Below, piece after piece: positions 1,457 through 7,040 of a stretch of DNA of 9,821 nt. The notes under the pieces are model-generated. The model was not told the origin of the DNA. It ran no database searches and worked only from the letters and a program-made list of their open reading frames with translations. Origin of the DNA: a virus (Duplodnaviria; Heunggongvirae; Uroviricota; Caudoviricetes); IMG/VR virus record IMGVR_UViG_2802429224_000016; one strand, given 5' to 3'. How positions within the stretch are numbered: position 1 is the first letter of the stretch; each line of letters begins with the position of its first letter. Both the position numbers and the translations under genes were made by a program.

Positions 1457-1533
1457 TTACCTCTAAGGTAATTAAAAACCACATAAGACACGAAATCAAT
1501 AGAGTTTAGAATGTTTTGTTACCTGATAGGTAA
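1457..1533. promoter_or_regulatory. Two operator-like palindromes TTACC-N5-GGTAA (1457-1471 TTACCTCTAAGGTAA; 1519-1533 TTACCTGATAGGTAA)
   Basis: Perfect 5-bp inverted half-sites with a 5-bp spacer, the same motif as in the oR/oL-like regions. Site 1457-1471 overlaps the RBS/5' UTR of the DUF1064-like gene. Confidence 0.5.
1471..1499 (-). promoter_or_regulatory. Candidate sigma70 promoter for the DUF1064-like/Ea22-like unit
   Basis: On the minus strand: -35 TTGATT (plus 1499-1494), 17-bp spacer, -10 TTTAAT (plus 1476-1471). The -10 lacks the conserved A at position 2, so this is weak. The 1457-1471 operator lies immediately downstream of the -10. Confidence 0.3.
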
Positions 1534-2356: not shown

Positions 2357-3168
2357 AAGAAATCCTCCCATGCTTCAGGGCTGTTCCAGTGCGGAACGTT
2401 GTTATCAGGTAATGTTGATTGCTTCTGTCTGCTAATCTGCAGCCGCCTTGCCAGCTTCTGCTCCCACTGTGCCTGATGGTATGCCTTACCCTCAGCCATC
2501 CAGTAAATTCTGAACTCTGCAAGTTCCTGTGCCGTTGGCAGACTGTCCAGGTAGATCCCCTGCAATGAGCTTTTCCGAAGAAAGTCATCTGATGGCTGCC
2601 ATTGTTCATGCATGACAAATTTGCCTAATTGCCCTGGCCCACGAGGAGGAACAAAGTTATTCATCACGGCGTTGTTTGCGCCGGGGTCATGAGGCACAGA
2701 ATCCCCGCTTTTTGTCCTGCTCTCCCTCTCTTGGTTAAATGACTGGTTATATGACTGGTTCTGGATCCCGTTTTTGGGATCATTCAACATCCCGTTTTTG
2801 GGATCATTCAACATCCCGTTTTTGGGTATATTCCCGTTTTCGGTAACATTACCGTTTTCGGGTTCATTACCCCCCTCCCGGTTGCCTTTAATGTTCCCGT
2901 TTTTGGTTATATTAAGAGAGAAAACCCGTACTCTTTTCGTCGCCCCCTTTCTCTCTCCGGTATCTGAAATAAGCCCCATTTTCATGAGCGATATAAGCCC
3001 GGCCTGCACGGTTTTTTTATTCAGGCAAGTGTCTTTAACGAGGCGTTCTATGCTGGGGTAGCAGAGGTTATATTCATCGGCTCTGTCAGCCATCGAGAGC
3101 AGTATGAGCTTTAATGACGAGCTACCTGGATCTGTCTCCCAGGCCCAATCTGTTGCATGTCTGCTCAT
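2353..3168 (-). CDS. Lambda O-like replication initiator (N-terminal HTH, iteron-encoded low-complexity linker, DnaT/O-like C-terminal domain)
   Basis: 271-aa ORF with ATG 3168 and GGAG RBS. The central peptide repeats (NDPKNGML x2, NG periodicity) are encoded by the iteron array. The C-terminal block QWQPSDDFLRKSSLQGIYLDSLPTAQELAEFRIYWMAEGKAYHQAQWEQKLARRLQ resembles the C-terminal domain of lambdoid O/DnaT-like proteins. Immediately upstream of the P-like gene. Confidence 0.8.
   Translation of the reverse strand: MSRHATDWAWETDPGSSSLKLILLSMADRADEYNLCYPSIERLVKDTCLNKKTVQAGLISLMKMGLISDTGERKGATKRVRVFSLNITKNGNIKGNREGGNEPENGNVTENGNIPKNGMLNDPKNGMLNDPKNGIQNQSYNQSFNQERESRTKSGDSVPHDPGANNAVMNNFVPPRGPGQLGKFVMHEQWQPSDDFLRKSSLQGIYLDSLPTAQELAEFRIYWMAEGKAYHQAQWEQKLARRLQISRQKQSTLPDNNVPHWNSPEAWEDFL
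2765..2910. repeat. Origin-of-replication iteron array inside the O-like gene
   Basis: Two identical 24-bp units ATCCCGTTTTTGGGATCATTCAAC (2765-2788, 2789-2812), a third variant (2813-2836) and degenerate copies with core CCCGTTTT(T)NGG (about 2833, 2852, 2896). The core ATCCC-N6-GGGAT has internal dyad symmetry, as lambda iterons do. Confidence 0.7.
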
Positions 3169-3183
3169 GATTAATCTCCGCTA

Positions 3184-3384
3184 TCAGCTTGAATGTTGTG
3201 GGGTGGAATTAATCATGATCTGCTTAATCTCTGCCCTGATGCGACGGTTTGATTCCATGGTGCACTCAACACAGTGTCCGTTGTAAACCCAGCGTTCACT
3301 GTCATGTCCGTGCTTACATGGTTTTCCGGTGTAGTAGCGTTTAAGTCCGCGCTTTGCGGCATCAATACGTGTAATGATTTCCAT
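3184..3384 (-). CDS. Small Cys/His-rich (putative zinc-binding) protein, 66 aa, at the cII-equivalent position
   Basis: ATG 3384 gives MEIITRIDAAKRGLKRYYTGKPCKHGHDSERWVYNGHCVECTMESNRR... with a C-x-H-x-H...H-C-x2-C arrangement. The track ORF extends to 3447, but that start is a TTG and the added N-terminus is a hydrophobic run. No family recognised. Confidence 0.45.
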   Translation of the reverse strand: MEIITRIDAAKRGLKRYYTGKPCKHGHDSERWVYNGHCVECTMESNRRIRAEIKQIMINSTPQHSS

Positions 3385-3464
3385 GGTAAGCCCTGTTATT
3401 AGTATTGGGATTACGGTTATTTTGTGCTGACACAAAAAAAAGATCAACCAGATTTGGTTTTTTA

Positions 3465-3479
3465 TTACCTTTGAGGTAC
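3465..3479. promoter_or_regulatory. Operator-like site TTACCTTTGAGGTAC (14 of 15 match to TTACC-N5-GGTAA)
   Basis: Lies between the post-cro terminator and the Cys/His-rich gene. Followed on the minus strand by a possible weak promoter (TTGATC-N17-CAAAAT). Confidence 0.35.
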
Positions 3480-3480
3480 G

Positions 3481-3513
3481 AATAGATATGAAAAGACCGC
3501 CACCCGGCGGTCT
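3481..3513 (-). terminator. Rho-independent terminator downstream of the Cro-like gene (tR1-like position)
   Basis: Minus-strand RNA AGACCGCC-GGGU-GGCGGUCU (plus 3494-3513; 8-bp GC-rich stem, 4-nt loop) followed by UUUUCAUAUCUAUU. On the plus strand it is preceded by A's rather than followed by T's, so it is unidirectional. Confidence 0.6.
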
Positions 3514-3534
3514 ACAGAGGGTTGTAGCTGGATA

Positions 3535-3765
3535 TCATGAGTAGAAGAAGTATGCCAGTTCTGCTTTTGAGCGCAGCCATTGTCTTGTTTTACAGGCTTT
3601 AAAAAGCCCATTCATCAATACTTTACCTGGCATTTTGCGCTTACCTGTTAAGTGAGTCTGGATATAGTGACTCGTCGTTCCGGCTTCCTGTGCGAAGGCT
3701 TCACGCTCATCCGGAGTAAGTGCAAGCCAGTGCTTTTTGAAATCGAAATGTCCGTTATCGCTCAT
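3535..3765 (-). CDS. Cro-like small HTH regulator (76 aa)
   Basis: Divergent from the repressor gene. The segment AGTTSHYIQTHLTGKRKMPGKVL resembles the lambda Cro recognition region (recalled as GVYQSAINKAIHAGRKIFL). Position and orientation match cro in a lambdoid immunity region. Confidence 0.65.
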   Translation of the reverse strand: MSDNGHFDFKKHWLALTPDEREAFAQEAGTTSHYIQTHLTGKRKMPGKVLMNGLFKACKTRQWLRSKAELAYFFYS

Positions 3766-3790
3766 AGCTATTGCCTGATATTTATTTCAG

Positions 3791-3819
3791 ATAATAAATA
3801 TTCACCCATAAGGTAACAA
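3791..3819 (-). promoter_or_regulatory. pR-like promoter driving the Cro-like gene
   Basis: On the minus strand: -35 TTGTTA (plus 3819-3814), 17-bp spacer, -10 TATTAT (plus 3796-3791). Operator site 3802-3816 sits inside the spacer/-35. Confidence 0.45.
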
Positions 3820-3864
3820 AAATCAAGGATAGTTACCTATGAGGTGCATTTACCTGTTGGGTAA
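3802..3864. promoter_or_regulatory. oR-like tripartite operator (3802-3816 TCACCCATAAGGTAA; 3833-3847 TTACCTATGAGGTGC; 3850-3864 TTACCTGTTGGGTAA)
   Basis: Three 15-bp palindromic sites in the divergent intergenic region between the Cro-like and repressor genes, centre spacings 31 and 17 bp. One perfect, two with 1-2 mismatches. Confidence 0.55.
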
Positions 3865-3919
3865 TATTGCTTTAAATTGAATCATCTACTGATTCATATA
3901 TGAGGCGATTTTCCAGAAA

Positions 3920-4504
3920 ATGAAAAGTATCCAGGACGTCCGCAGGCAAAATCTCAACGACTTGATCGACCGTGAATTCAATGGTGTTCAGACGCGGATG
4001 GCAGAAAAACTTGGAACTCAGGCAAATCTGGTAAACCGCTGGGCTCTTGGCAAGAAGGTTATCGGCGACCAGGTTGCGCGAAAAATTGAAGCTGCCGCCA
4101 ATAAACCCCGTAACTGGCTTGATATCGATCGCTCGCTTTCTCAGGAAGGTTTTCAGCCTGTCGGCCCGAGTGATATAGGTCAGCTGGCTGCTCACAACCT
4201 GGAACGCTGGATGAGCGAAAGCCGCGACCTTTCAACGCAGGGAAAACTACACCGCGCATCCGGCGTCGCCCAGGTGACAATCAGCCGCCTGTTAAACAAT
4301 GAGGTCAGCGTTTCCATTTCCACCCTGGAGAATGTTGCATCTGCATTCGGGCGTCATGGCTATGAATTACTGATTCACCCGCACGACCCTGCGACTATCA
4401 ACTATGACCGCTCGCGCTACGCATTGTTACCCGAAACCGAGAAAGCAAAGATCGAAAGTTACATTGAATTTGTCATCAACCAGAACGAAAAAAACAAACA
4501 ATAA
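3920..4504 (+). CDS. Putative prophage repressor with tandem HTH_XRE-like domains, no S24/LexA-type peptidase domain (194 aa)
   Basis: First HTH around QTRMAEKLGTQANLVNRWALGKKVIGDQVARKIEAA, second around LHRASGVAQVTISRLLNNEVSVSISTLENVASAFG. No Ser/Lys autocleavage motif seen in the C-terminus. cI-equivalent position: divergent from cro, flanked by both operator clusters. No SD upstream of ATG 3920, so a leaderless transcript is possible. Confidence 0.7.
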   Translation: MKSIQDVRRQNLNDLIDREFNGVQTRMAEKLGTQANLVNRWALGKKVIGDQVARKIEAAANKPRNWLDIDRSLSQEGFQPVGPSDIGQLAAHNLERWMSESRDLSTQGKLHRASGVAQVTISRLLNNEVSVSISTLENVASAFGRHGYELLIHPHDPATINYDRSRYALLPETEKAKIESYIEFVINQNEKNKQ

Positions 4505-4524
4505 AACTATAGTTTTCAGCAAGT

Positions 4525-4550
4525 AAGCCGCCATGAGGCGGCTTTTTTAT
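4525..4550 (+). terminator. Rho-independent terminator after the repressor gene
   Basis: AAGCCGCC-ATGA-GGCGGCTT (4525-4544) followed by TTTTTTATT. Confidence 0.7.
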
Positions 4551-4561
4551 TGCCTGTTAGA

Positions 4562-4638
4562 TTACCTGTTGGGTAATTTTTTTAACTCATATCTATTGAC
4601 ATCAAACCAGATACGCATAATTATTACCTAAACGGTAA
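4562..4638. promoter_or_regulatory. oL-like operator pair (4562-4576 TTACCTGTTGGGTAA; 4624-4638 TTACCTAAACGGTAA)
   Basis: Two perfect palindromes flanking a candidate promoter. The 16-mer TTACCTGTTGGGTAAT is identical to the site at 3850-3865. Confidence 0.55.
4596..4624 (+). promoter_or_regulatory. pL-like promoter for the rightward early operon
   Basis: Perfect -35 TTGACA (4596-4601). The -10 is either AATTAT at 17-bp spacing (4619-4624) or CATAAT at 14-bp spacing (4616-4621). The -10 region abuts or overlaps operator 4624-4638. Confidence 0.35.
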
Positions 4639-4657
4639 CAGACCGAGGTAACAAGTT

Positions 4658-4810
4658 ATGCAGTGGAAAATCATCAACGGTTGGTACTGCGTTACTGCAT
4701 GCGGATTCATGAGCTGGAAGTTCCGCACCTTACAGGAAGGCATCAAGTGGGCTTTCGTCAGCAAAGAAGCTCGCGATGTGGCCAACGATAACGAGATATG
4801 GGAGGGCTGA
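4658..4810 (+). CDS. Small hypothetical protein (50 aa, Trp-rich), first gene of the rightward operon
   Basis: ATG 4658 with GAGGT 8 nt upstream: MQWKIINGWYCVTACGFMSWKFRTLQEGIKWAFVSKEARDVANDNEIWEG, stop TGA 4808-4810. Below the length cutoff of the supplied ORF track. No family recognised. Confidence 0.4.
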   Translation: MQWKIINGWYCVTACGFMSWKFRTLQEGIKWAFVSKEARDVANDNEIWEG

Positions 4811-4812
4811 TA

Positions 4813-5112
4813 ATGAACGTTAATCAGCAGAAAAATCTTCAAAAAATCATGCTGGCATTCGACAAGGACTACCGCCTGTCAGAACAGCTATATGACCGAC
4901 AAGTTGAACTGATTGAGAGCATCCGACTTCATCAACTGTCCTCAACTTTCGACGTTGTAACAGGCAAAGGCGTTCGTCAGGAAGTACTGGAGGCTGCTAA
5001 AGACAGCCCTGAGTTCGAAGAACTGATGGATGCCTATCGGCGAGAGGCAATGGCAATTATCGCCCGCTGGGATCTGGCGGATCAGCTTGATGGACAGAGG
5101 GACGCGGCATGA
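4813..5112 (+). CDS. Hypothetical protein (99 aa), translationally coupled to the downstream exonuclease gene
   Basis: ATG 4813 with GGAGGG (4801-4806) 6 nt upstream; the track's ATG 4798 lacks an RBS. Stop overlaps the exonuclease start (ATGA at 5109-5112). No family recognised. Confidence 0.55.
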   Translation: MNVNQQKNLQKIMLAFDKDYRLSEQLYDRQVELIESIRLHQLSSTFDVVTGKGVRQEVLEAAKDSPEFEELMDAYRREAMAIIARWDLADQLDGQRDAA

Positions 5113-6008
5113 TGCGGAACGCTGGAATCATGGATAGAACAAAATACATCGGAGGAAGCGATGTTGCAGGGATTCTTGGAATTAGCCCATGGCGCACCCC
5201 GCTTGAGGTTTATCTGGATAAGGTCCAGCCACGTGTCAAACCAGTAGACCCAAGCAAGCAGAAAGTTTTCACGCGTGGCCAGCGTATGGAGCCATACGTA
5301 ATAGACCTGCTTTCTGAGGAAACAGGGATGGAAATCGTTCATCGCGGAAACCGCTATATCCACCGTGATTACGATTTTATTGCAGCTGAGATCGATGCAG
5401 AAGCAGCGTCAGGCGAGAACATTGAGATCAAAACAGTTAGTCCGTTCAAAGCCAAAGAATGGGGAGAAATCCAGACAGATGCAATTCCTGTGCATTACAC
5501 GGCCCAGGCCATGCACGGGTTGATGGTTACAAACAAACAGGTATGCGTTTTCGGTGTGCTTATCGGTGGCGACGACTTCCGAATCTATCGGGTTGAGCGT
5601 GATGAAGAAACTATCCAGGCGATCTTAGAAAAAGAAATCGCTTTCTGGGACCGAGTGAAAAATCTTAACCCGCCGGAAGCTACCAGCGTAAGCGATGTAT
5701 CGCTGATGTTTGAGAAAGATGCCGGGACAAGTATCGAGGCTGACGGAAAGGCACTCGCACTATTCAACGATCTACGAGACATGAAGTCACGCAGAAAATC
5801 ACTGGAAGAAGAAATAGCTATATCAGAAGAGAAGCTGAAGATGTACATGCAAGAGCACTCAGTCCTGACCCTGGACGGAAAGCCGCTCTGCACATGGAAA
5901 TCTCAGATCAGCAACAGATTCGACCAGAAGCTATTCCAGTCAGTACACCCTGAGTTATTCGAAAAATTCAAAACAACAACGACACAACGCGTCTTCAGAA
6001 TGAAGTAA
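5109..6008 (+). CDS. YqaJ-type viral recombinase-associated exonuclease (lambda-Exo superfamily, PD-(D/E)xK)
   Basis: N-terminal motif IGGSDVAGILGISPWRTPLEVY is typical of YqaJ-family phage exonucleases. Sits immediately upstream of recT. GAGGG RBS before ATG 5109. Confidence 0.85.
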   Translation: MMRNAGIMDRTKYIGGSDVAGILGISPWRTPLEVYLDKVQPRVKPVDPSKQKVFTRGQRMEPYVIDLLSEETGMEIVHRGNRYIHRDYDFIAAEIDAEAASGENIEIKTVSPFKAKEWGEIQTDAIPVHYTAQAMHGLMVTNKQVCVFGVLIGGDDFRIYRVERDEETIQAILEKEIAFWDRVKNLNPPEATSVSDVSLMFEKDAGTSIEADGKALALFNDLRDMKSRRKSLEEEIAISEEKLKMYMQEHSVLTLDGKPLCTWKSQISNRFDQKLFQSVHPELFEKFKTTTTQRVFRMK

Positions 6009-6017
6009 GGAGAAAAA

Positions 6018-7040
6018 ATGTCTATCAATGCACTTAAGGCAGCGGCTACCGGTAACCAAGTTGCACATCATAATGAGAAACCAACAACTCTGGCCGGACT
6101 TCTGGCAGACCCAAAAATTAAAGCTCAGATGGCTTTGGCACTTCCAAAGCACATGACAGCAGACCGTCTGGCGCGCATAGCAACCACAGAGATCCGAAAG
6201 GTTCCAAAACTTGCATCATGCGACCAAGCCAGCTTCCTGGGGGCAATTATGCAATGTGCCCAATTGGGTCTTGAACCAGGCGGAGCTCTTGGACACGCTT
6301 ACCTGATACCGTTCGACAAACGCCAGAAAGTAAATGGAAGATGGGAAACCGTATCTACAGAAGCACAGCTGATTATCGGCTATCGCGGAATGATTGACCT
6401 TGCCCGCCGCTCTGGGCAGATCCTGAGTATCTCGGCTCGTACCGTACATACAAACGACAAATTCAGCTACTCATACGGCCTGGAAGAAACGCTCGAGCAT
6501 TTACCTTGCGAAACAGGTGACCGCGGAGAATTAACGCACGTTTACGCCGTTGCACGACTGAAAGATGGCGGAGTCCAATTTGAAGTTATGAGCCGGGCAG
6601 ACGTTGAGAAAGTTCGTGCACTGAGCAAAGCCGGTAGCAGTGGCCCATGGGTTGATCACTTCGATGAGATGGCTAAAAAAACAGTAATTCGCCGACTGTT
6701 CAAATATCTTCCTGTTTCTATTGAAATGCAGAAGGCTGTTGTTATGGATGAGCGCGCTGAAGCTGGACTTAGCCAAGATAACGCAGCTGTTATCACTGGT
6801 GAATATTCCGTAGTTGACGATGAGCGTCAACACCTGTCGCCAATTTCAGATTCAGAACGAGAAGAAGCTCGAGAATATATCATCGCGATACTTAATAGCC
6901 TGGATCCATCTGCTGAAGATGCAAAAACGATGTTCAAGCGCGCTGAAAATGAAATTAACACCATGGCTGACAAGCTCGGTGATGAATATCACCAAAAATT
7001 CATGATGACGCTTAACGATATGCGTCCAGAATTCGAGTAA
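6018..7040 (+). CDS. recT: RecT-family single-strand annealing recombinase
   Basis: Strong resemblance to Rac-prophage RecT as recalled: MTADRLARIATTEIRKVP, LIIGYRGMIDLARRSGQI, THVYAVARLKDGGVQFEVM, GPWVDHFDEMAKKTVIRRLFKYLPVSIE. AAGGAG RBS before ATG 6018. Confidence 0.9.
   Translation: MSINALKAAATGNQVAHHNEKPTTLAGLLADPKIKAQMALALPKHMTADRLARIATTEIRKVPKLASCDQASFLGAIMQCAQLGLEPGGALGHAYLIPFDKRQKVNGRWETVSTEAQLIIGYRGMIDLARRSGQILSISARTVHTNDKFSYSYGLEETLEHLPCETGDRGELTHVYAVARLKDGGVQFEVMSRADVEKVRALSKAGSSGPWVDHFDEMAKKTVIRRLFKYLPVSIEMQKAVVMDERAEAGLSQDNAAVITGEYSVVDDERQHLSPISDSEREEAREYIIAILNSLDPSAEDAKTMFKRAENEINTMADKLGDEYHQKFMMTLNDMRPEFE

What the first reader, a model, noticed from the sequence alone, without database searches (positions are those of the whole stretch)
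3791..3919. Lambda-like oR logic with a different operator alphabet, and a possibly leaderless repressor mRNA
Three TTACC-N5-GGTAA-type sites (3802-3816, 3833-3847, 3850-3864) lie between divergent Cro-like and repressor genes. The cro-proximal site sits inside the spacer/-35 of a good minus-strand promoter (TTGTTA-N17-TATTAT). The repressor ORF has no Shine-Dalgarno before ATG 3920, which would fit a leaderless pRM-type transcript as in lambda cI. The operator half-sites do not resemble lambda, 434 or P22 operators as I recall them, suggesting a distinct immunity specificity.
Basis: partly seen in the sequence, partly recalled or inferred. Interest (0 to 1): 0.45.

Follow-up and report, generated by a model that had tools for sequence, protein, structure and literature searches.

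The report
Known phiV10-type prophage repressor operators
This is the on/off control region of a common, already described E. coli prophage of the phiV10/epsilon15 group; its repressor binding sites are real and conserved but already known, and the idea that the repressor mRNA has no leader is not supported.

Summary
Three TTACC-N5-GGTAA sites, the minus-strand promoter TTGTTA-N17-TATTAT and a repressor start with no well-placed Shine-Dalgarno are all at the stated coordinates, and the motif is far above chance (5 perfect copies, 0 expected).

The window is the early region of a phiV10-type Uetakevirus prophage, 97% identical to phiV10 and present in 562 of 5426 complete E. coli genomes. The repressor is 100% identical to phiV10 gp40 and ZX5 ORF21. 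It is a full-length homologue of the SPC32H Rep (PDB 5D50), a tetramer that is induced by an antirepressor and has no self-cleavage domain.

The same palindrome is annotated as the repressor binding site in the epsilon15 GenBank record. It sits at the same positions in all 13 relatives examined.

The layout is only partly lambda-like. The window holds at least four more sites, including two promoter-flanking pairs exactly 62 bp apart, and phiV10 carries 14 sites genome-wide.

No -10 element lies where a leaderless transcript needs one. The only promoter candidate conserved in position implies a leader of about 35 nt. The operator alphabet differs from lambda, 434 and P22 (recalled sequences) but is shared by the whole genus. 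Verdict: ordinary and already known.

The parts
3802..3816 (.). Operator site 1 (Cro-proximal), TCACCCATAAGGTAA, 1 mismatch. It lies in the spacer/-35 of the leftward promoter.
   Evidence: Its centre is at -111/-108 relative to the rep ATG in all 13 relatives, and it is always imperfect.
3833..3847 (.). Operator site 2, TTACCTATGAGGTGC, 2 mismatches.
   Evidence: The position (-80/-78) is conserved. The GGTGC defect is shared by five of the six phiV10-clade sequences (Erwinia has GGTAC) and by Scandinavium. The site is perfect in the epsilon15-type and Klebsiella phages and prophages.
3850..3864 (.). Operator site 3 (rep-proximal), TTACCTGTTGGGTAA, perfect. It is identical to the site at 4562-4576.
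   Evidence: It is perfect in all 13 relatives, with its centre at -63/-61.
3791..3819 (-).
   Evidence: 9 of 12 matches. It is present only in the window, phiV10 and Tyrion.
3798..3826 (-). Alternative leftward promoter, TTGATT-N17-GAATAT. Its -35 lies in the invariant AAAAATCAA block.
   Evidence: A promoter of this form, TTGATT-N16-18-(G)AATAT or AATAAT, is found at the same place in all 13 relatives. The block is invariant in alignment A1.
3849..3878 (+). Candidate rep promoter, TTTACC-N18-TAAATT. Its -35 overlaps site 3. It implies a start near 3885 and a leader of about 35 nt.
   Evidence: It is the only plus-strand promoter-like element conserved in position in all 13 relatives. TT.AATT.A is invariant. 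It is a weak match and the start site is not mapped.
3902..3905 (+). GAGG, the only Shine-Dalgarno-like element, 13-14 nt before the ATG.
   Evidence: dG -5.6 kcal/mol, spacing outside the usual range. The G at 3902 is invariant in A1.
3920..4504 (+). Repressor (Rep), 194 aa. It has an N-terminal helix-turn-helix DNA-binding domain, a middle helix-turn-helix-like dimerisation domain and a C-terminal tetramerisation/antirepressor-binding domain.
   Evidence: 100% identical to phiV10 gp40 and ZX5 ORF21. PDB 5D50 matches at E 4e-42 over residues 1-190. Pfam HTH_3 matches residues 106-147 and there is no peptidase S24. Domain roles come from PMC9986798.
3535..3765 (-). Cro-like small helix-turn-helix protein (phiV10 gp41 homologue), 76 aa.
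   Evidence: phrog_35 'transcriptional repressor', E 5.6e-13. The helix-turn-helix AGTTSHYIQ.HLT is invariant across clades. No Pfam or PDB match.
3494..3513 (-). Intrinsic terminator after the Cro-like gene.
   Evidence: Annotated as a terminator in phiV10.
3465..3479 (.). Single operator, TTACCTTTGAGGTAC (1 mismatch), between the cro terminator and gp42.
   Evidence: It keeps its position in the window, phiV10, Tyrion and BUCT711 (centre -448), and in the Superficieibacter prophage (-437).
4525..4544 (+). Intrinsic terminator after rep.
   Evidence: Annotated in phiV10.
4562..4576 (.). Distal operator of the rightward (pL-like) promoter, perfect.
   Evidence: It lies 62 bp centre-to-centre from the site at 4624 in 10 of 13 relatives; the exceptions are 63 bp in both Klebsiella sequences and 61 bp in Scandinavium.
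4596..4624 (+). Rightward early promoter, TTGACA-N17-AATTAT. It drives gp39, gp38, exo and recT.
   Evidence: 10 of 12 matches. CTATTGAC is conserved in all relatives.
4624..4638 (.). Proximal operator of the rightward promoter, perfect. It starts at the last base of the -10.
1519..1533 (.). Distal operator of the leftward promoter in front of the DUF1064 gene, perfect.
   Evidence: The 62-bp pair is present in the 12 relatives where both sites were found.
1471..1499 (-). Candidate promoter, TTGATT-N17-TTTAAT, between the two operators.
   Evidence: Read from the sequence. CTATTGA is conserved. It is not picked up by the strict consensus scan.
1457..1471 (.). Proximal operator, perfect. It overlaps the Shine-Dalgarno sequence (GAGG) of the DUF1064 gene, which starts at 1453.

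Best explanation
Region 3791-3919 is the divergent-promoter control region of a phiV10-type Uetakevirus prophage integrated next to guaA.

**The repressor.** The gene at 3920-4504 encodes an SPC32H-type Rep. By homology, paired N-terminal helix-turn-helix domains recognise the palindrome (A)TTACC-N5-GGTAA(T). A middle domain dimerises the protein. A C-terminal domain makes tetramers and is the target of an antirepressor. There is no RecA-dependent self-cleavage.

**Proposed action in the lysogen (inferred, not shown).**
- Rep on site 1 sits inside the core of the leftward promoter. This shuts off the Cro-like gene and the replication genes behind it.
- Rep on sites 2 and 3 sits on and next to the -35 of the weak rep promoter and autoregulates it.
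- The same protein closes two other early promoters in the window. Each is flanked by an operator at about -62 and one at about +1, in helical phase. One tetramer probably bridges each pair.

**Induction.** In the closest relative, phiV10, induction would come from a LexA-controlled antirepressor encoded outside this window.

**The rep mRNA.** It most likely carries a short, unstructured leader of about 35 nt with no properly placed Shine-Dalgarno sequence. It is probably not leaderless.
For: **Identity of the element.**
- 97% DNA identity to phiV10, phiv142-3 and ZX5.
- The prophage lies beside guaA in a 99%-identical E. coli genome.

**The repressor.**
- 100% identical to phiV10 gp40 and ZX5 ORF21.
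- Overexpressing ZX5 ORF21 cut endolysin and holin transcripts by more than 99.9% and abolished free phage (PMC9782041).
- It is a full-length homologue of SPC32H Rep, PDB 5D50/5D4Z, E 4e-42.
- Tetramer formation, DNA binding across dimers and release by the antirepressor are described in PMC9638917 and PMC9986798.

**The motif.**
- 5 perfect sites against 0 expected.
- All good sites are intergenic and next to promoters.
- ATTACC-N5-GGTAAT is annotated 'protein_bind, repressor, lysogeny' in epsilon15.
- Half-sites stay fixed while spacers vary across 13 relatives whose repressors are only 41-78% identical to this one.
- The recognition-helix stretch NLVNRW is invariant.

**Layout.**
- Site centres hold at -111, -80 and -63 relative to the rep ATG.
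- The 62-bp operator pairs are conserved.

**Induction.**
- phiV10 has a Bro-N antirepressor operon preceded by a perfect LexA box.

**The leader.**
- A positionally conserved TTTACC-N17/18-TAAATT or TTTAAT is present, and no -10 lies near the ATG.
- The region from -35 to +41 folds less well than shuffles, z = +2.15.
Against: - No binding or transcription experiment exists for these exact sites in anything I could read.
- The primary SPC32H papers (PMC3807360, PMC4983836) and the epsilon15 genome paper (PMC2698709) are not held. What was mapped there is unknown to me.
- The rep promoter candidate is a poor consensus match. In Tyrion, BUCT554 and the Erwinia prophage its -10 lacks the conserved A at position 2.
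- If site 3, the best site, overlaps the rep promoter, rep would be strongly self-repressed. That is possible but untested.
- Bridging of the 62-bp pairs by one tetramer is inference from spacing alone.
- Whether the Cro-like protein uses the same sites is unknown.
Confidence: 0.82

Rival explanations
1. One reading: the repressor is made from a pRM-type promoter whose transcript starts at the A of ATG 3920, as a leaderless mRNA like lambda cI.
For: - No Shine-Dalgarno sequence lies at the usual distance. GAGG is 13-14 nt upstream.
- This lack is shared by all relatives.
- Epsilon15-type relatives have TACAAT ending 5 nt before the ATG.
- A distant N-terminal-domain homologue in Paraburkholderia (L013) shows textbook leaderless geometry, TTTACC-N17-TATACT-N6-ATG.
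Against: - In the window, positions -12 to -7 are ATTTTC.
- The nearest promoter-like hexamer pair has a -10 (GAAAAT) that overlaps the ATG itself, which would start transcription downstream of the start codon.
- Nothing like the epsilon15 TACAAT is present in the phiV10 clade or in Klebsiella phages.
- Other genes in the window (Cro-like, gp42, perC) also have weak Shine-Dalgarno sequences, so a weak one does not imply a leaderless mRNA.
Confidence: 0.1
2. The Cro-like protein (3535-3765) binds the same three sites with a different order of preference, giving a true lambda-style bistable switch. The sites would then serve two proteins, not Rep alone.
For: - The gene's position is divergent from rep, and its family is annotated as a transcriptional repressor.
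- Its helix-turn-helix is invariant across clades, as expected if it reads a DNA sequence that is also invariant across clades. The TTACC/GGTAA half-sites are such a sequence.
- The three sites differ in quality in a conserved way.
Against: - There is no experimental or structural information on this protein.
- Its recognition helix (SHYIQTHL) is unlike that of Rep (ANLVNRW).
- A different conserved element is repeated in promoter spacers, for example CCATATATGG in Tyrion. That element could be its target instead.
Confidence: 0.3
3. The palindromes are chance matches in AT-rich intergenic DNA and have no function.
For: At two mismatches the pattern is expected about 3 times per window. The hits at 624 and 3641 are probably of this kind.
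Against: - 5 perfect copies against 0 in 200 shuffles.
- Positions are conserved to within 3 bp in 13 relatives, while spacers and flanks diverge.
- The motif is annotated as a repressor site in epsilon15.
Confidence: 0.01

Closest known systems
Salmonella phage SPC32H Rep-Ant system (PDB 5D50, 5D4Z; Kim & Ryu 2013, Kim et al. 2016) and the epsilon15 gp38 repressor with its annotated ATTACC-N5-GGTAAT sites
   Same: - Full-length homologous repressor with the same three-domain layout.
- Same operator palindrome at the same positions.
- Same gene order: Cro-like gene, rep, terminator, rightward promoter.
- Same genus and the same guaA integration site.
   Different: - Only 42% protein identity overall, with the N-terminal domain more conserved.
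- Spacers here contain G and C (TGTTG, TAAAC), while those of epsilon15 are A/T-rich.
- Site 2 is degenerate here and perfect there. The defective half of site 1 is on the opposite side.
- Epsilon15 has a third rightward-promoter site that is absent here.
Phage lambda OR/OL with CI and Cro (from established knowledge)
   Same: - Divergent repressor and Cro-position genes separated by three related palindromes of unequal quality.
- One site lies inside the lytic promoter.
- A second operator set controls the opposite early operon, which holds the recombination genes.
   Different: - The repressor has no S24 self-cleavage domain and is induced by an antirepressor.
- It acts as a tetramer with two DNA-binding units, not as dimers cooperating side by side.
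- The best site is the repressor-proximal one.
- Operators occur at many more promoters (14 in phiV10).
- Each early operon is bounded by a terminator and has its own repressor-controlled promoter.
- Half-site and spacing differ: ACC-N5-GGT here, against ACC-N3-GGT in lambda as I recall it.
- There is no sign of a leaderless pRM.
Dispersed-operator repressors such as P1 C1 and mycobacteriophage L5 gp71 (from established knowledge)
   Same: One repressor has many operators scattered over the genome. They lie at early, late, lysis, integrase and antirepressor control regions.
   Different: - The sites here are symmetric palindromes, while P1 and L5 sites are asymmetric.
- The proteins are unrelated.
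- A lambda-like triple site at the divergent promoters is retained.
Gifsy-type LexA-controlled antirepressor induction (Lemire et al. 2011, PMC3121763; listed, not read)
   Same: The repressor has no cleavage domain. In phiV10 a LexA box lies in front of the antirepressor operon.
   Different: The repressor family is different. The antirepressor gene is outside this window and was not examined in this prophage.

Membership tests
SPC32H/epsilon15-type Uetakevirus repressor and its operators | Full-length homology to Rep: N-terminal DNA-binding domain, middle dimerisation domain and C-terminal tetramerisation/antirepressor-binding domain | tested here: met
   phmmer against PDB 5D50_A gives E 4e-42, with query residues 1-190 aligned to chain residues 2-197. 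C-terminal residues are conserved in alignment A2.
SPC32H/epsilon15-type Uetakevirus repressor and its operators | No LexA/CI-type peptidase S24 self-cleavage domain | tested here: met
   Pfam finds only helix-turn-helix families.
SPC32H/epsilon15-type Uetakevirus repressor and its operators | Operators of the form (A)TTACC-N5-GGTAA(T) at early promoters | tested here: met
   in the window. The epsilon15 annotation gives the same motif. Positions agree in 13 relatives.
SPC32H/epsilon15-type Uetakevirus repressor and its operators | Partner antirepressor under LexA control | not testable with these tools
   The gene lies outside the window. In phiV10 a Bro-N 'anti-immunity' gene (p23) sits in an operon preceded by a perfect LexA box, CTGTATAAATACACAG. 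ZX5 ORF4 acts as an antirepressor.
SPC32H/epsilon15-type Uetakevirus repressor and its operators | Tetramer that binds DNA with N-terminal domains paired across dimers | not testable with these tools
   Known only for SPC32H, through secondary sources. The 62-bp phased operator pairs here are compatible with it.
Lambda-type CI/Cro OR switch | Divergent repressor and cro genes with a tripartite operator overlapping both promoters | tested here: inconclusive
   The three sites and the overlap with the leftward promoter are present. The rep promoter is only a weak candidate, and binding by the Cro-like protein is unknown.
Lambda-type CI/Cro OR switch | Repressor with a C-terminal S24 domain, cleaved with the help of RecA | tested here: not met
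Lambda-type CI/Cro OR switch | Operators confined to the OR and OL clusters | tested here: not met
   Further sites lie at 3465 and at 1457/1519 in the window. phiV10 has 14 sites, including at late, lysis, integrase and antirepressor regions.
Leaderless mRNA (lambda cI pRM type) | A -10 hexamer ending about 6-7 nt before the A of the start codon | tested here: not met
   Positions -12 to -7 are ATTTTC. No promoter-like pair ends between -10 and -4 in the window or its clade. Such geometry was detected in L013, so the scan can find it when it is present.
Leaderless mRNA (lambda cI pRM type) | Mapped 5' end at the start codon | not testable with these tools
   I found no transcript-mapping data for this phage group in the held literature.

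The most novel reading that the evidence does not exclude
The whole genus uses one operator alphabet although the repressors have diverged to about 42% identity. If so, immunity specificity would not be set by operator recognition as it is in lambdoid phages. It would be set by the pairing of the repressor's C-terminal domain with its antirepressor, perhaps together with spacer-dependent affinity. In addition, the strictly conserved 62-bp pairs, in helical phase at about -62 and +1 of two early promoters, would be bridged by a single Rep tetramer. Repression would then work by a small protein-DNA loop rather than by side-by-side dimers. Neither point is stated in the papers I could read.
Probability: 0.3. 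Interest if true: 0.4.

Novelty: already known. Interest (0 to 1): 0.15.

Why it matters
It matters little as a discovery. The phage group, the repressor structure, the antirepressor route of induction and the operator palindrome are all on record, and this window is 97% identical to a sequenced phage.

The re-analysis has three modest uses:
- It corrects the lambda analogy. The repressor is a tetramer induced by an antirepressor, and it has many dispersed operators.
- It shows that the leaderless idea does not fit this sequence.
- It documents a conserved layout that is easy to test: three graded sites at fixed distances from the rep ATG, and 62-bp operator pairs around two early promoters. 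A secondary source states that how this repressor family represses genes 'has not been extensively characterized' (PMC9986798).

Tried and rejected
- **Primary literature.** The epsilon15 genome paper (DOI lookup and PMC2698709), Kim & Ryu 2013 (PMC3807360) and Kim et al. 2016 (PMC4983836) are not held. I relied on secondary descriptions and GenBank annotation. Five literature searches found no operator or transcription-start mapping for this group.
- **Leaderless promoter.** I scanned 13 orthologous regions with a simple sigma-70 weight matrix. No -10 lies near the ATG in the phiV10 clade.
- **Upstream ORF.** A 7-codon ORF (ATG 3900 to TGA 3921-3923) overlaps the rep ATG as ATGA. Tyrion lacks it, and in epsilon15 the equivalent is in another frame (read). 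I rejected it as a conserved coupling device.
- **Hairpin hypothesis.** I looked for a hairpin that would bring GAGG closer to the ATG. The region is instead unusually unstructured.
- **Plus-strand promoter-like site at 3511-3538**. It is not conserved in Tyrion.
- **Rfam scan of the window.** Nothing found.
- **Cro-like protein.** Pfam and PDB sequence searches found nothing. Only a PHROG family matched.
- **Distant N-terminal-domain homologues** (Hydrogenovibrio, Thiomicrospira, Paraburkholderia). Their recognition helices differ. They have no perfect TTACC-N5-GGTAA sites, and only one isolated 1-mismatch hit about 2.5 kb from the gene in L017. This is weakly consistent with helix and operator changing together, but there are too few sequences to count as a test.
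- **Information content of the site.** The calculation is circular for the ten core positions, because sites were selected on them. It is used only for spacer and flank positions.

Full report
**1. The observation**

- Site 1, 3802-3816: TCACCCATAAGGTAA.
- Site 2, 3833-3847: TTACCTATGAGGTGC.
- Site 3, 3850-3864: TTACCTGTTGGGTAA.

Against TTACC-N5-GGTAA they carry 1, 2 and 0 mismatches.

The pattern is far above chance. There are 5 perfect copies in 9821 bp against 0.00 in 200 dinucleotide-preserving shuffles. With up to 1 mismatch there are 7 copies against 0.23. With up to 2 mismatches there are 10 against 3.0. Two-mismatch hits can therefore be chance, and the ones at 624 and 3641 probably are. 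Site 2 is real because of conservation, not because of its score.

The minus-strand promoter TTGTTA-N17-TATTAT (3819 to 3791) is found by the consensus scan and overlaps site 1. ATG 3920 is the first start codon after an in-frame stop at 3890. The only Shine-Dalgarno-like element is GAGG at 3902-3905, 13-14 nt upstream.

Perfect copies lie at 1457, 1519, 4562 and 4624, and a one-mismatch copy lies at 3465.

**2. What the window is**

The stretch 3300-4800 is 97-98% identical to Escherichia phages phiV10, phiv142-3, vB_EcoP_ZX5 and others of the genus Uetakevirus, the epsilon15-like podoviruses. It occurs in 562 of 5426 complete E. coli genomes. In a genome that is 99% identical over this stretch, the prophage lies next to guaA. 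That is the attachment site reported for ZX5, phiV10 and epsilon15 (PMC9782041).

Gene content is the phiV10 early region:
- integrase, methylase, PerC-like and AlpA-like genes;
- recT, exonuclease and two small genes;
- rep and the Cro-position gene;
- gp42, a DnaT-like initiator, lambda-P-like and DUF1064 genes.

**3. The repressor**

The 194-aa product of 3920-4504 is 100% identical to phiV10 gp40 and ZX5 ORF21. Pfam sees helix-turn-helix domains only, with no peptidase S24.

It aligns over its full length (residues 1-190) with the repressor of Salmonella phage SPC32H, PDB 5D50, at E 4e-42.

I could not read the primary papers. Two later papers summarise them.
- Rep has an N-terminal DNA-binding domain, a middle dimerisation domain and a C-terminal tetramerisation domain that also binds the antirepressor Ant (PMC9986798).
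- Rep binds DNA as a tetramer. The domain pairs that read a palindrome come from different dimers. A tetrameric Ant splits the tetramer. One tetramer suffices for repression (PMC9638917).

For ZX5, overexpression of ORF21 reduced endolysin and holin transcripts by 99.99% and 99.97% and abolished free phage. ORF4 behaved as an antirepressor (PMC9782041).

**4. The motif is already on record and is shared by the genus**

The epsilon15 GenBank record annotates ATTACC-N5-GGTAAT sites as 'protein_bind, repressor, lysogeny'.

I compared 13 elements:
- the window, phiV10, Tyrion, BUCT554, Klebsiella BUCT711, epsilon15 and SPC32H;
- prophages of Superficieibacter, 'Ca. Erwinia dacicola', Klebsiella, two Citrobacter species and Scandinavium.

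Their repressors are 41-78% identical to this one where they differ.

In all 13 the three sites lie with their centres at -111/-108, -80/-78 and -63/-61 relative to the rep ATG. Half-sites are fixed while the five spacer bases vary.

The quality pattern is conserved too.
- Site 3 is always perfect.
- Site 1 is always imperfect.
- Site 2 is imperfect throughout the phiV10 clade and in Scandinavium. It reads GGTGC in all of these except Erwinia, which has GGTAC. It is perfect in the epsilon15-type and Klebsiella sequences.

The N-terminal domain is the best conserved part of Rep, and the likely recognition helix NLVNRW is invariant.

So the operator alphabet is distinct from lambda, 434 and P22, whose operators I recall from memory and did not compute. 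It is not distinct within the group.

**5. The layout is only partly lambda-like**

*Promoter modules outside the stated interval.* Behind rep there is a terminator (4525-4544). Then comes a strong rightward promoter, TTGACA-N17-AATTAT (4596-4624). It is flanked by a perfect operator at 4562-4576 and one at 4624-4638 that begins at the last base of the -10.

The same module occurs on the minus strand in front of the DUF1064 gene. Its order is terminator, operator 1519-1533, TTGATT-N17-TTTAAT, then operator 1457-1471, which overlaps the gene's Shine-Dalgarno sequence.

In both modules the two operators are 62 bp apart centre to centre. For the pair before the DUF1064 gene this holds in all 12 relatives where both sites were found. 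For the rightward pair it holds in 10 of 13; the two Klebsiella sequences have 63 bp and Scandinavium 61 bp. The spacing holds even though the intervening sequence has diverged without insertions or deletions. Sixty-two bp is about six helical turns. It places the sites near -62 and +1 of the promoter. A repressor with two DNA-binding units could bridge them. This is inference from spacing only.

*Other sites.* A single site at 3465-3479 follows the terminator of the Cro-like gene. Over the whole phiV10 genome there are 14 sites with at most one mismatch. Apart from two at the start of the small terminase gene, they are intergenic:
- before the structural genes;
- on both sides of the p24-p23 antirepressor operon;
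- before the lysis cassette;
- before the integrase gene.

A perfect LexA box, CTGTATAAATACACAG, lies just upstream of p24.

*Overall picture.* One repressor directly closes many separately terminated operons and is induced through an SOS-controlled antirepressor. This is not a two-operator switch feeding an antitermination cascade.

**6. Promoters in the stated interval**

TTGATT-N16-18-(G)AATAT or AATAAT is present at the same place in all 13. Its -35 is the invariant AAAAATCAA block of the alignment.

*Rightward (rep).* The only promoter-like element conserved in position is TTTACC or TTACCT, then N17/18, then TAAATT (TTTAAT in some). Its -10 ends 40-43 nt before the ATG. It is a weak match, as maintenance promoters often are. 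It overlaps site 3 and places site 2 near -45. This implies a leader of about 35 nt.

**7. The leaderless hypothesis**

A transcript starting at the A of the ATG needs a -10 hexamer ending about 6-7 nt upstream.

In the window that stretch reads ATTTTC. The nearest promoter-like pair, TTCATA-N17-GAAAAT, overlaps the ATG itself and would start transcription downstream of it. Epsilon15-type phages do have TACAAT ending 5 nt before the ATG, but the phiV10 clade and the Klebsiella phages have nothing comparable.

The scan can detect such geometry when it exists. A distant N-terminal-domain homologue in a Paraburkholderia contig has TTTACC-N17-TATACT-N6-ATG.

A weak or misplaced Shine-Dalgarno sequence is not special to rep in this window. 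The Cro-like gene, gp42 and perC are similar.

The region from -35 to +41 is less structured than 199 of 200 shuffles (z = +2.15). My own dinucleotide shuffles gave z between +1.5 and +2.5 for the five phiV10-clade sequences tested, and no such excess in the four epsilon15-type, Klebsiella and Scandinavium sequences. An open, A/U-rich start region can support initiation without a good Shine-Dalgarno sequence (established knowledge).

I therefore rate leaderless expression at about 0.1 for this phage. Only 5'-end mapping can settle it.

**8. The Cro-like gene**

The 76-aa product of 3535-3765 has no Pfam or PDB match. It does match PHROG 35, 'transcriptional repressor', at E 5.6e-13.

It is 76-84% identical between the phiV10, Enterobacter and epsilon15-type clades and 58% to the Klebsiella phage. 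Its helix-turn-helix AGTTSHYIQ.HLT is invariant. It is thus better conserved than Rep. Whether it reads the same palindromes is unknown.

**9. Verdict**

It is wrong or unsupported on the lambda-type repressor logic and the leaderless mRNA. The claim of a distinct specificity is overstated.

The feature is the known immunity region of a common, sequenced phage type. Interest is low. The residual novelty lies in the conserved graded triple site and the 62-bp operator pairs, which were not described in anything I could read.

Noticed in passing
window 4562-4638 and 1457-1533: Two early promoters are each flanked by two perfect operators 62 bp apart centre to centre, at about -62 and +1. For the 1457/1519 pair this spacing is kept in all 12 relatives where both sites were found. 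For the 4562/4624 pair it is kept in 10 of 13 (63 bp in both Klebsiella sequences, 61 bp in Scandinavium). The sequence between the operators has diverged. This suggests bridging by one repressor tetramer.
   Followed up: partly
window 3437-3491: The single operator at 3465-3479 is embedded in a 25-nt copy of the spacer/-10 part of the rightward promoter (3446-3470 against 4605-4629; nearly identical in Tyrion, by eye). It is followed by an inverted copy of TCATATCTATT, which precedes the -35 at 4587-4597. This could be a recombination scar between promoter modules. It could also be a plus-strand promoter with no -35, pointing through the Cro-like gene towards rep, as an establishment promoter would.
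   Followed up: partly
window 4603-4616; L002 (Tyrion) 3150-3160 and 4320-4330: The spacers of several Rep-controlled promoters share an AACC..AT..GG element. It is the perfect palindrome CCATATATGG at two places in Tyrion. It may be the target of a second regulator, for example the Cro-like protein.
   Followed up: no
window 2732-2871: Tandem repeats of period 12, 24 and 18 lie inside the DnaT-like/HTH_36 replication gene. They encode an N/G-rich repeat. They resemble origin iterons placed inside the initiator gene, as in the lambda O gene.
   Followed up: no
window 5109-7040: The exonuclease (5109-6008) and RecT (6018-7040) are separate genes here, as in epsilon15. phiV10 annotates a single fused recET gene. 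Only 74-78% of the window aligns to the closest phages, so the region is mosaic.
   Followed up: no
L018 (phiV10 genome) 20822-20837, plus 3252, 20497, 20877, 24692 and 26870: A perfect LexA box lies upstream of the p24-p23 (Bro-N antirepressor) operon. Further Rep-type palindromes lie before the structural genes, the lysis cassette and the integrase gene, and on both sides of the antirepressor operon.
   Followed up: partly
window 3535-3765 compared with 3920-4504: The Cro-like protein is much better conserved between the phiV10 and epsilon15 clades (76%) than the repressor (42%). This is the reverse of what one might expect for an immunity determinant.
   Followed up: partly
window 3900-3923: A seven-codon ORF (ATG AGG CGA TTT TCC AGA AAA TGA) ends in an ATGA overlap with the rep start codon. 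It is present in most of the phiV10 clade but not in Tyrion or epsilon15, so it is probably fortuitous.
   Followed up: yes
L013 (Paraburkholderia MAG contig) 2960-3003: A 238-aa protein shares only the N-terminal domain (40% identity). It is preceded by TTTACC-N17-TATACT-N6-ATG, the geometry expected for a leaderless repressor mRNA.
   Followed up: no
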